This document shows, piece by piece, positions 63,533-63,658 of a stretch of 64,000 bases of DNA (position 1 is the first letter of the stretch; every line of letters starts with the position of its first letter). The notes under the pieces were generated by a model. The model was not told the origin of the DNA. It did not search any database and was given only the letters and a program-made list of their open reading frames with translations. The stretch lies in NCBI RefSeq assembly GCF_058153355.1, contig NZ_CM177019.1; one strand, written 5' to 3'. The position numbers and the translations under genes are program-made.

Positions 63533-63658
63533 GAGTCTTTCAGTCTGCGATGATGGGAAATCCCGGAGTGACTGAAAGACGTTTAAGTTATGAATGATCG
63601 CCTTTTTTTGCAAAATTGCTGTGCAGAAATACTAACCTTCGGGTGTGCGATCATTCAT
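63533..63658 (+). promoter_or_regulatory. two large inverted-repeat structures between the tRNAs and the holin
   Basis: 11-bp arms GTCTTTCAGTC/GACTGAAAGAC (63533..63578) and 14-bp arms TTATGAATGATCGC/GCGATCATTCATAA (63586..63658). Confidence 0.4.

What the first reader, a model, noticed from the sequence alone, without database searches (positions are those of the whole stretch)
63533..63658. Two long inverted repeats immediately after the tRNA cluster
An 11-bp stem with a 24-nt loop (63533..63578, loop contains GGGAAATCCC) is followed by a 14-bp perfect inverted repeat with a 45-nt loop (63586..63658). Neither has a canonical T-run. They sit in the late transcript between the tRNAs and the S gene and could be RNase processing sites for tRNA 3' maturation, an attenuator, or a protein-binding site.
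Basis: seen in the sequence. Interest (0 to 1): 0.3.

Follow-up and report, generated by a model that had tools for sequence, protein, structure and literature searches.

The report
Structured RNA trailer of prophage tRNA operon
The two inverted repeats are real and belong to a conserved three-hairpin RNA that follows the tRNA genes of many lambda-like prophages; it is in no RNA catalogue I could search, is probably a stable small RNA, and its function has not been tested.

Summary
Both inverted repeats exist, each 2 nt downstream of the stated coordinates: 11-bp arms at 63535-45/63570-80 and 14-bp arms at 63588-601/63647-60. A third repeat, 63659-67/63705-13, was missed. Perfect repeats of this size are far above chance.

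Together they form three hairpin modules (M1, M2, M3) of a + strand RNA. It lies between a phage tRNA cluster (Met-Arg-Thr-Gly) and the phage-21-type holin gene, downstream of Q and tR'.

About 130 related loci were recovered from lambdoid phages and prophages of Escherichia, Citrobacter and Yokenella, including phage HK639. They keep the helices through compensatory changes. G.U pairs outnumber A.C about 9-10:1, so the + strand RNA is what is selected.

The modules are separable. M2 starts 1-3 nt after the last tRNA when M1 is absent. About 70% of relatives end in an intrinsic terminator, which has decayed in this copy.

Rfam, RefSeq annotation and a literature search give no name. It is not STnc100, PasA/PasD or put RNA.

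Best reading: a stable small RNA released from the 3' trailer of the tRNA transcript, in the known "sRNA/moron slot" after Q. Function is inferred, not shown.

The parts
63180..63208 (+). Sigma-70 promoter-like site for the tRNA cluster: TTGCAG, 17 nt, TATTAT, then the GC-rich TCTGCCTCC before tRNA-Met
   Evidence: The scan reports TTTGCA-18-TATTAT, 9/12. In one search the same TTGCNN-N17-TAT(T/C)AT-N9 layout is conserved upstream of tRNA-Met in dozens of related loci while the spacer sequence varies. Activity is inferred.
63218..63528 (+). Phage tRNA cluster: Met(cat) 63218-63294, Arg(tct) 63296-63372, Thr(tgt) 63375-63450, Gly(tcc) 63454-63528
   Evidence: ARAGORN; Rfam tRNA matches of 56-70 bits.
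63535..63580 (+). An 11-bp stem is extended by G63547.U63569 and C63548-G63568. An apical mini-hairpin pairs 63554-57 with 63562-65. The internal loop GCGAUGAUGGG is conserved. M1 is optional in the family.
   Evidence: Alignment A3 of 21 variants: 96.1% of cells paired, 3 pairs with compensatory changes, slid controls 40-50%. G.U 61 against A.C 6.
63588..63660 (+). A 14-bp outer helix encloses two inner hairpins, 63605-12/63622-29 and 63635-37/63642-44. The 19-mer UUUUUGCAAAAUUGCUGUG lies at 63605-63623.
   Evidence: Alignment A2, helix 1: 14 pairs, 4 with compensatory changes, 95.4% paired. The interior is replaced in distant relatives L134 and L176 while the outer helix is kept.
63659..63713 (+). 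The lower stem covaries. A 5' internal loop follows. The upper stem and loop carry the invariant strand GGGUGGUUUGUUGG at 63689-63702.
   Evidence: In A2, 4 of 8 lower-stem pairs are compensatory. Solo copies with unrelated lower stems fold the same way.
63736..63754 (+). Decayed intrinsic terminator of the unit: GCCCGC-UUUU-GCG followed by UUUUUU. Only 3 bp remain, -3.3 kcal/mol.
   Evidence: fold; close relatives carry GCCCGC-TTTT-GCGGGC (21), GCGGGT (16), GCGGTT (11) or GCGTTT (9, as here). In one search, 51 of 71 M2+M3 loci have a terminator within about 90 nt after M3.
63108..63129 (+). Context: tR'-like terminator (CCCGCC-UCCG-GGCGGG-UUUUUU) downstream of Q (62602-63018)
   Evidence: Read directly in the sequence. 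Q matches PF06530, 181 bits.
63820..64000 (+). Context: start of the phage-21-type holin S gene, which runs off the window
   Evidence: PF04971, 107.8 bits.

Best explanation
The inverted repeats are hairpins M1 and M2 of a three-hairpin, + strand structured RNA (M1-M2-M3, 63535-63713). This RNA is the 3' trailer of the prophage's tRNA operon. The layout is: promoter-like site 63180-63208, tRNA Met-Arg-Thr-Gly, M1-M3, then an intrinsic terminator that is intact in most relatives and decayed here. The operon sits in the insertion-tolerant slot between Q/tR' and the lysis genes, where lambdoid prophages are known to carry small-RNA genes. Proposed mechanism (inferred). The unit is transcribed from its own promoter and, during lytic growth, by Q-modified polymerase from PR'. 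RNase P and RNase E excise the tRNAs. The cut just after the last CCA leaves a trailer whose 5' end is immediately buried in a long helix (M1, or M2 where M1 is absent), which protects it from 5'-end-dependent decay. The resulting RNA, about 190-230 nt, accumulates as a stable small RNA. It acts as an RNA, most likely in trans as a regulator or sponge, through its sequence-invariant parts. The main candidate is the G/U-rich strand GGGUGGUUUGUUGG of M3, which could pair with C/A-rich targets. Shown: the structure, the strand, family conservation, modularity, genomic context and terminator association. Inferred: transcription start, processing, stability and trans action.
For: Structure and strand. 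The fold has z = -4.96. RNAalifold gives 39 pairs, 9 of them compensatory. Pair counts are 96.6% paired against 29-50% in slid controls, with the covariation score reached by 0 of 500 shuffles. M1 is 96.1% paired. G.U against A.C is 108:12 for M2+M3 and 61:6 for M1. Family. About 100 loci came from one seed and more from an independent seed. The covariance model gives 80-162 bits in relatives. The element is in 529 of 5426 complete E. coli genomes, a median of one copy each, always beside the holin gene. Context. It always lies between a Q-type gene and a lysis cassette, with different Q and holin families. tRNA linkage. M2 starts 1-3 nt, or M1 about 6 nt, after the last tRNA, whether that is Gly, Thr or Arg. 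Unit architecture. The promoter-like motif is conserved, and 51 of 71 loci have a terminator after M3. Precedent in the same slot. In HK639 an Rfam STnc100 sRNA follows directly. Published work places sRNA genes downstream of PR' (PMC4104026) and places Pas sRNAs next to holin genes (bioRxiv 10.64898/2026.05.13.724894). Not coding. The ORF is broken in HK639, and indels of +1, -1 and +2 fall in the only conserved frame.
Against: There is no expression, end-mapping or Hfq/ProQ binding data for this RNA. The window's own terminator is reduced to 3 bp, so a discrete 3' end is doubtful in this copy. About 30% of relatives show no terminator by my criterion, and some have tRNAs directly after tR' with no separate promoter. 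The element therefore also works, or at least persists, as part of the read-through late transcript. The candidate seed is partly base-paired. No complementary target lies in the 64-kb window. M3 also occurs alone just upstream of unrelated ORFs, which looks more like a cis-acting leader element. Presence of the promoter and presence of the terminator do not correlate across loci.
Confidence: 0.42

Rival explanations
1. Cis-acting stabiliser or insulator of the late mRNA. When the tRNAs are cut out of the Q-antiterminated late transcript, the downstream lysis and structural mRNA is left with a 5'-monophosphate end. The helix that starts right after the tRNA (M1 or M2), and the M3 hairpin, would shield that end from RNase E and so keep late gene expression high. 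The functional product would be the long mRNA, not a small RNA.
For: The first helix begins 1-6 nt after the CCA end whichever tRNA is last. About 30% of loci, including this window, have no effective terminator after M3. Some loci have no separate tRNA promoter. M3-solo copies sit 8-70 nt upstream of ORFs like 5'-UTR hairpins.
Against: Simple end protection needs only a stable hairpin. It does not explain the invariant 14-mer in M3 or the sequence-conserved outer helix of M2. In HK639 and most relatives a strong terminator and further sRNA cassettes separate the element from the lysis genes.
Confidence: 0.27
2. A protein- or polymerase-binding RNA. The hairpins, especially M3 with its invariant strand, would be a recognition site for a host or phage factor. 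Candidates are a put-like element acting on RNA polymerase, a decoy for a tRNA-targeting nuclease, or a ProQ-, CsrA- or ribosomal-protein-type site.
For: In M3 one strand and the loop are invariant while the partner strand and lower stem vary freely, a pattern typical of a sequence-specific recognition hairpin. The element is associated with tRNA clusters. It is present in phages with different Q and holin families, which points to a common, possibly host, partner.
Against: It has no similarity to the putL-like RNA annotated in HK639 and lies in the wrong place for put. GGA motifs are not conserved; HK639 has none in M3. No candidate binding protein co-occurs with it.
Confidence: 0.13
3. A pure tRNA-maturation aid or a neutral hitch-hiker. 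The trailer would only guide or delay 3' processing of the tRNA precursor, or would simply be co-inherited with the tRNA block.
For: Tight physical linkage to the tRNA block. HK639 retains the element with only the 3' half of tRNA-Gly, as expected for co-inheritance of a block.
Against: Compensatory substitutions and a roughly 10:1 G.U bias show selection on the RNA structure. Eight distinct loci carry M2+M3 with no tRNA nearby, and M3 occurs alone. E. coli tRNA trailers need no such structure (background knowledge).
Confidence: 0.1
4. DNA-level palindromes, such as a binding site for a DNA-binding protein, a recombination site or a cruciform, or a dispersed repeat of REP, ERIC or MITE type.
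For: Long perfect palindromes. The - strand also folds well (z = -4.69), as any palindrome does.
Against: G.U pairs are kept on the + strand only: 169 G.U against 18 A.C cells. Helix register is preserved while arm sequences change. There is one copy per prophage, always in the same slot and orientation.
Confidence: 0.03

Closest known systems
3' external-transcribed-spacer small RNAs of tRNA operons (E. coli 3'ETS-leuZ of glyW-cysT-leuZ; from background knowledge, and listed as 3'ESTleuZ in the PMC8550237 supplement)
   Same: It lies directly after the last tRNA of a polycistronic tRNA unit. It runs to the operon's intrinsic terminator in most relatives. Its 5' end would be created by tRNA 3' processing, and an RNase E-like AG|UUUU motif sits at the junction in M1-less loci.
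   Different: It is three to four times longer (about 190-230 nt against about 50) and highly structured, with three modules. It is phage-borne. Hfq binding and sponge activity are untested. The terminator has decayed in this copy.
Prophage small RNAs of the Q/PR' 'moron' slot: STnc100/PasD, PasA/PasC, AsxR/AgvB, StxS, Esr41
   Same: It occupies the same genomic slot between Q and the holin gene. Relatives show the same cassette style, a body plus an intrinsic terminator. In HK639 it stands in tandem with an STnc100 copy.
   Different: Rfam covariance models give no match in the window. The model of this family finds nothing in the PasA/PasD2 locus of E2348/69. Published PasA and PasD seed regions differ. 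The known members are not fused to tRNA genes.
Phage T4 stable RNAs 'species 1 and 2' (rnaD/rnaC) encoded in the T4 tRNA cluster (from memory, not checked here)
   Same: Structured, non-tRNA stable RNAs co-transcribed with, and processed from, a phage tRNA cluster. Their function is still unknown.
   Different: No sequence similarity: a sensitive BLASTN against 50,697 phage records finds only 6 records, all lambdoid coliphages. The phage type and the position in the genome differ.
put antiterminator RNAs of HK022 and HK639
   Same: Multi-hairpin cis RNA in a lambdoid transcript, and HK639 carries both.
   Different: put lies just downstream of the early promoters. The annotated HK639 putL-like RNA shows no resemblance by inspection. 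The late operon already has Q.

Membership tests
Any Rfam 15 family | Covariance-model match at or near the gathering score | tested here: not met
   Window 62500-64000 at E<=1 gives only the four tRNAs and terminator-like noise, with nothing in 63529-63760. The HK639 copy is also unmatched, apart from weak istR, isrB and rsmX hits (22-26 bits, below gathering) that cover part of M3 and the terminator.
STnc100 / PasD sRNA | Match to RF02076 | tested here: not met
   No hit in the window. In HK639 STnc100 is a separate, adjacent cassette at L001 2818-3023.
PasA / PasC sRNA | Sequence or structure shared with the E2348/69 pasA locus | tested here: not met
   Model R1 finds nothing in NC_011601 733000-753000, which holds pasA and pasD2. 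The published PasA seed region differs.
3'ETS-type tRNA-trailer sRNA | Directly downstream of the last tRNA in the same transcription unit | tested here: met
   tRNA-Gly ends at 63528 and M1 starts at 63535. The gap is 1-3 nt (M2) or about 6 nt (M1) across the family.
3'ETS-type tRNA-trailer sRNA | Ends at the operon's intrinsic terminator | tested here: inconclusive
   Met in 51 of 71 relatives. In the window the stem has decayed to 3 bp.
3'ETS-type tRNA-trailer sRNA | 5' end made by RNase E; binds Hfq; sponges or regulates RNAs | not testable with these tools
   Only a sequence motif (AG|UUUU) at the junction in M1-less loci.
Intrinsic terminator / attenuator | GC-rich stem immediately followed by a U-run; for an attenuator, mutually exclusive alternative helices | tested here: not met
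   There is no U-run after IR1 or IR2, and the terminator scan lists nothing there. MFE and centroid structures are identical, with no competing fold.
put antiterminator RNA | Located just downstream of PL/PR; similarity to known put RNAs | tested here: not met
   It lies in the late leader. The HK639 putL-like sequence is unrelated by inspection.
Dispersed intergenic repeat (REP / ERIC / MITE) | Many copies per genome in unrelated contexts | tested here: not met
   A median of 1 place per genome (maximum 5), all beside a holin gene. One copy in the window.
Small protein gene | Reading frame conserved among relatives | tested here: not met
   The 38-aa ORF 63590-63706 stops after 10 codons in HK639. 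Indels of +1, -1 and +2 nt fall inside the only conserved frame, in L073, L087 and L065.

The most novel reading that the evidence does not exclude
M3 may be a dedicated recognition hairpin for a conserved host or phage factor. Its features are a free-varying lower stem, a variable partner strand and the invariant GGGUGGUUUGUUGG strand and loop. The tRNA-linked M1-M3 RNA would then be a new kind of phage RNA device. Examples are a decoy or antidote for tRNA-targeting defence nucleases, or an RNA that modifies the transcribing or translating machinery for the late operon, rather than an ordinary base-pairing sRNA.
Probability: 0.12. Interest if true: 0.75.

Novelty: new member of a known kind. 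Interest (0 to 1): 0.45.

Why it matters
About one in ten complete E. coli genomes, and phages such as HK639, phi467 and PhiR47_1, carry this RNA at one of the most heavily transcribed positions of a lambdoid prophage. Yet it is unannotated and absent from Rfam. If it is a stable trailer-derived RNA, it would extend the "3'ETS sRNA" idea from host tRNA operons to phage tRNA clusters. It would also add a new family to the prophage sRNAs that rewire host regulation from the Q-S slot. If instead it protects the late mRNA after tRNA excision, it would explain how phages can place tRNA genes at the head of a 20-kb mRNA without destabilising it. Either way it gives a concrete, covariation-supported target for Northern blots, RIL-seq and deletion experiments.

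Tried and rejected
- Rfam at E<=1 on the window and on HK639: no family.
- Literature: a search for the exact conserved 14- and 16-mers in 8 million papers gave 0 papers. The Pas sRNA papers, the Tree 2014 anti-sRNA paper and the P22 sRNA paper describe other RNAs in the same slot. P22E is the PR' short transcript and is unrelated.
- Coding hypothesis for the 38-aa ORF and the 'GGLLD' frame: rejected because of stops and frameshifting indels.
- Promoter inside M2 (TTGCAA-16-TACTAA): the -10 is not conserved in relatives (TACTGA). Rejected by inspection.
- boxA/boxB (nut-like) reading of CGCUCAUCC plus M3: the boxA-like string is base-paired and not conserved in the window type. Rejected.
- CsrA-type GGA sites: not conserved, since HK639 M3 has none. 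Rejected.
- Self-target search: no complement of the M3 14-mer or the M2 19-mer elsewhere in the window.
- Idea that loci with their own tRNA promoter have terminators and loci without have none: the 2x2 table showed no association (27/15/15/7). My promoter and terminator calls are crude.
- Species-representative genome scan with a strict two-block pattern: only Citrobacter sedlakii and Yokenella regensburgei. This is uninformative on abundance because one genome stands for each species.
- Resemblance of the M1 loop GAUGAUGG to the PasA target motif CUGAUGAUGG: only 6 of 10 positions can pair. Not pursued.

Full report
OBSERVATION. Both inverted repeats are present, shifted 2 nt from the stated coordinates. 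The first has arms 63535-63545/63570-63580 (11 bp, perfect, 24-nt loop containing GGGAAATCCC at 63555-63564). The second has arms 63588-63601/63647-63660 (14 bp, perfect, 45-nt loop). Neither is followed by a T-run. Perfect inverted repeats of this size are well above chance. For 11-nt arms there are 20 seed hits in the window against a mean of 0.9 in dinucleotide shuffles. For 14-nt arms there are 2 hits against 0. A third perfect repeat, 63659-63667/63705-63713, abuts the second and was not reported. The 192 nt from 63529 to 63720 fold on the + strand into three consecutive hairpin domains. The energy is -67.8 kcal/mol, z = -4.96, and the MFE and centroid structures are identical.

CONTEXT. 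Upstream lie NinH, a Q antiterminator (62602-63018; PF06530, 181 bits) and a tR'-like terminator at 63108-63129. Four tRNA genes follow: Met 63218-63294, Arg 63296-63372, Thr 63375-63450 and Gly 63454-63528. Downstream, at 63820, a phage-21-type holin S gene begins (PF04971). The region is therefore the leader of the late operon of a lambdoid prophage. The 292-nt tRNA-to-holin spacer occurs at 95-99% identity in 529 of 5426 complete E. coli genomes. There is a median of one copy per genome, always next to the holin gene, and RefSeq annotates nothing there. Four sequenced coliphages carry it at about 97% identity, and two of those records annotate a spurious hypothetical protein over it. Phage HK639 has a 76-79% identical copy in the same position.

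A FAMILY WITH COVARIATION. Two independent exact-word scans of IMG/VR, plus one scan of species-representative genomes, recovered about 130 related loci. The words were TTGCAAAATTGCTGTG from hairpin 2 and GGGTGGTTTGTTGGRT from hairpin 3. The loci include prophages of Citrobacter sedlakii and Yokenella regensburgei.

On a 25-sequence alignment of hairpins 2 and 3 (A2), RNAalifold predicts 39 pairs, 9 of them with compensatory double changes. Of all cells, 96.6% form standard pairs, against 29-50% when the 3' partners are slid by 1-3 columns. The covariation score is 0.214, against 0.148 +/- 0.006 in shuffles, and is reached by 0 of 500 shuffles. Hairpin 1 (A3, 21 variants) is 96.1% paired with 3 compensatory pairs.

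G.U pairs, which are possible only on the + strand, outnumber A.C cells, which would be G.U on the - strand. The counts are 108:12 for hairpins 2 and 3 and 61:6 for hairpin 1. The selected object is therefore an RNA transcribed in the late-operon direction, not a DNA palindrome.

A covariance model built from A2 scores 141 bits on the window copy and 80-162 bits on relatives with both modules. It finds no second copy in the window. The small ORFs across the region are not conserved. The 38-aa ORF stops early in HK639, and indels of +1, -1 and +2 nt disrupt the only conserved frame.

ANATOMY: THREE SEPARABLE MODULES AND A TERMINATOR.
- M1 (63535-63580) is optional. In many loci the last tRNA is followed directly by M2.
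- M2 (63588-63660) has a sequence-conserved outer helix, UUUUGAAUGRGCG...CGCUCAUCCAAAA in most members and UUAUGAAUGAUCGC/GCGAUCAUUCAUAA here. Its interior is well conserved among close relatives but is completely replaced in L134 and L176.
- M3 (63659-63713) has a freely covarying lower stem, with versions GCACUCU, GCAUCUC, GCACCCC, AGCACAUUAC and GGCAUGCAUACCC, each with a matching 3' arm. It has a 5' internal loop, then an upper stem whose 5' strand varies. Its 3' strand and loop, GGGUGGUUUGUUGG (63689-63702), are invariant. Since a 16-mer containing this block was one of the two search words, its invariance is partly built in. The loci found through the other word also keep it, with a few exceptions (L032, L054, L111).
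- M3 also occurs alone, upstream of other ORFs. M2 occurs without M3 in L011, L015, L019, L064 and L071.
- M2 begins 1-3 nt, or M1 about 6 nt, after the CCA end of whichever tRNA is last (Gly, Thr or Arg). In M1-less loci the junction reads CCAG|UUUU, which fits the RNase E preference RN|WUU known from the literature. That link is my inference.
- In 51 of 71 distinct loci with M2+M3, an intrinsic terminator follows M3 within about 90 nt.
- Close relatives of the window show a decay series: GCCCGC-UUUU-GCGGGC (21 loci), GCGGGU (16), GCGGUU (11) and GCGUUU (9). The window carries the last form, a 3-bp stem of -3.3 kcal/mol.
- Upstream of the first tRNA, most loci share TTGCNN-N17-TAT(T/C)AT followed by a 9-nt GC-rich stretch, while the spacer sequence varies. 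The window version is at 63180-63208. This looks like a stable-RNA promoter, but its activity is untested. It is absent in loci where the tRNAs follow tR' directly.

WHAT IT IS NOT. Rfam 15 at E<=1 matches nothing in the element, either in the window or in HK639. In HK639, the cassette M1-M3 plus terminator is followed by a bona fide STnc100 match (52.6 bits; gathering score 47) and further terminators. The late leader there is therefore an array of terminator-ended small-RNA cassettes, and this element is a separate one. It is not PasA or PasD: the published seed regions differ, and the model finds nothing in the E2348/69 pasA/pasD2 locus. It is unrelated to the putL-like RNA annotated in HK639. 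It is not a terminator or attenuator, because it has no U-run and no alternative fold. It is not a dispersed repeat, because there is one copy per prophage in one fixed slot. A full-text search for the conserved words found no paper.

MOST LIKELY MECHANISM (inferred). The unit is a tRNA operon with a structured 3' trailer. It sits in the insertion-tolerant region downstream of PR', where prophage small RNAs are known to reside (PMC4104026; bioRxiv 10.64898/2026.05.13.724894).

tRNA processing would release the trailer with its 5' end buried in a long helix. The terminator, or hairpin M3, would protect its 3' side. The result would be a stable RNA of about 190-230 nt. The invariant single-strand-prone blocks suggest function through specific recognition, most simply base pairing with C/A-rich targets. 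These blocks are the M3 G/U-rich strand, the M2 19-mer and the M1 loop GCGAUGAUGGG. This resembles other prophage sRNAs and the host 3'ETS-leuZ sponge. I give this reading about 0.4.

The main rival, at about 0.27, is a cis role: shielding the 5' end of the late mRNA after the tRNAs are cut out. It is favoured by the loci without a terminator or promoter and by M3-solo copies in 5' UTRs. It does not explain the sequence invariance. A factor-binding RNA is the third option, at about 0.13. The confident claim, at about 0.9, is narrower: this is a conserved, + strand, modular structured RNA family linked to phage tRNA clusters in the late leader.

VERDICT. The specific functions remain open. The element is best filed as a new, unannotated member of the known class of prophage late-leader and tRNA-trailer small RNAs, and it is moderately interesting.

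Noticed in passing
L001 (phage HK639) 2818-3023: An Rfam STnc100 sRNA match (52.6 bits, above the gathering score of 47) lies directly after the M1-M3 plus terminator cassette. Two more annotated terminators follow before the holin gene. The HK639 late leader is therefore an array of terminator-ended small-RNA cassettes.
   Followed up: partly
window 63296-63372 and the equivalent second tRNA in related loci: The second tRNA of the phage cluster varies widely in anticodon among otherwise similar clusters. Variants seen are tct (here), ttt, aaa, gaa, taa, tat, a tta 'stop'-reading form, and several with odd anticodon loops that ARAGORN cannot name.
   Followed up: no
window 63180-63208: A conserved sigma-70 promoter-like motif (TTGCNN-N17-TATYAT plus a 9-nt GC-rich stretch) sits immediately before tRNA-Met, downstream of tR'. 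The hexamers are conserved and the spacers are variable across dozens of loci. This implies the tRNA cluster can be expressed independently of Q.
   Followed up: partly
window 63736-63754: The terminator after the element shows a stepwise G-to-T decay series among close relatives (GCGGGC 21, GCGGGT 16, GCGGTT 11, GCGTTT 9). The window has the weakest form, which may allow read-through from the tRNA promoter towards the lysis genes.
   Followed up: partly
L152, L155, L165, L168 (about 12 nt before the start codon) and L130, L148 (30-100 nt before the ORF): Hairpin M3 occurs alone, with unrelated lower-stem sequences. In one group it sits just upstream of the ribosome-binding site of an ORF beginning MKVYIAGPMTNRPHFNRPAFF. 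In the other it sits upstream of an ORF beginning MAWLGVPFQL that precedes the holin gene.
   Followed up: partly
L001 (HK639) about 2490-2555: HK639 keeps only the 3' half of tRNA-Gly in front of M1. ARAGORN finds no tRNA there, and the alignment to the window starts inside the tRNA. The tRNA has decayed while the trailer RNA has been kept.
   Followed up: partly
window 36585-36598/36617-36630; also seeds at 3809, 11295, 12006, 37263, 57834/57893 and 59443/59510: Other perfect inverted repeats of 11-14 bp with short loops, above the shuffle expectation. The 14-bp one at 36585 is the only other repeat in the window as long as IR2.
   Followed up: no
window 63590-63706; phage records ON470583.1 and ON470580.1: Two deposited phage genomes annotate a 'hypothetical protein' over the structured RNA. 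The ORF is not conserved and is probably a mis-annotation.
   Followed up: partly
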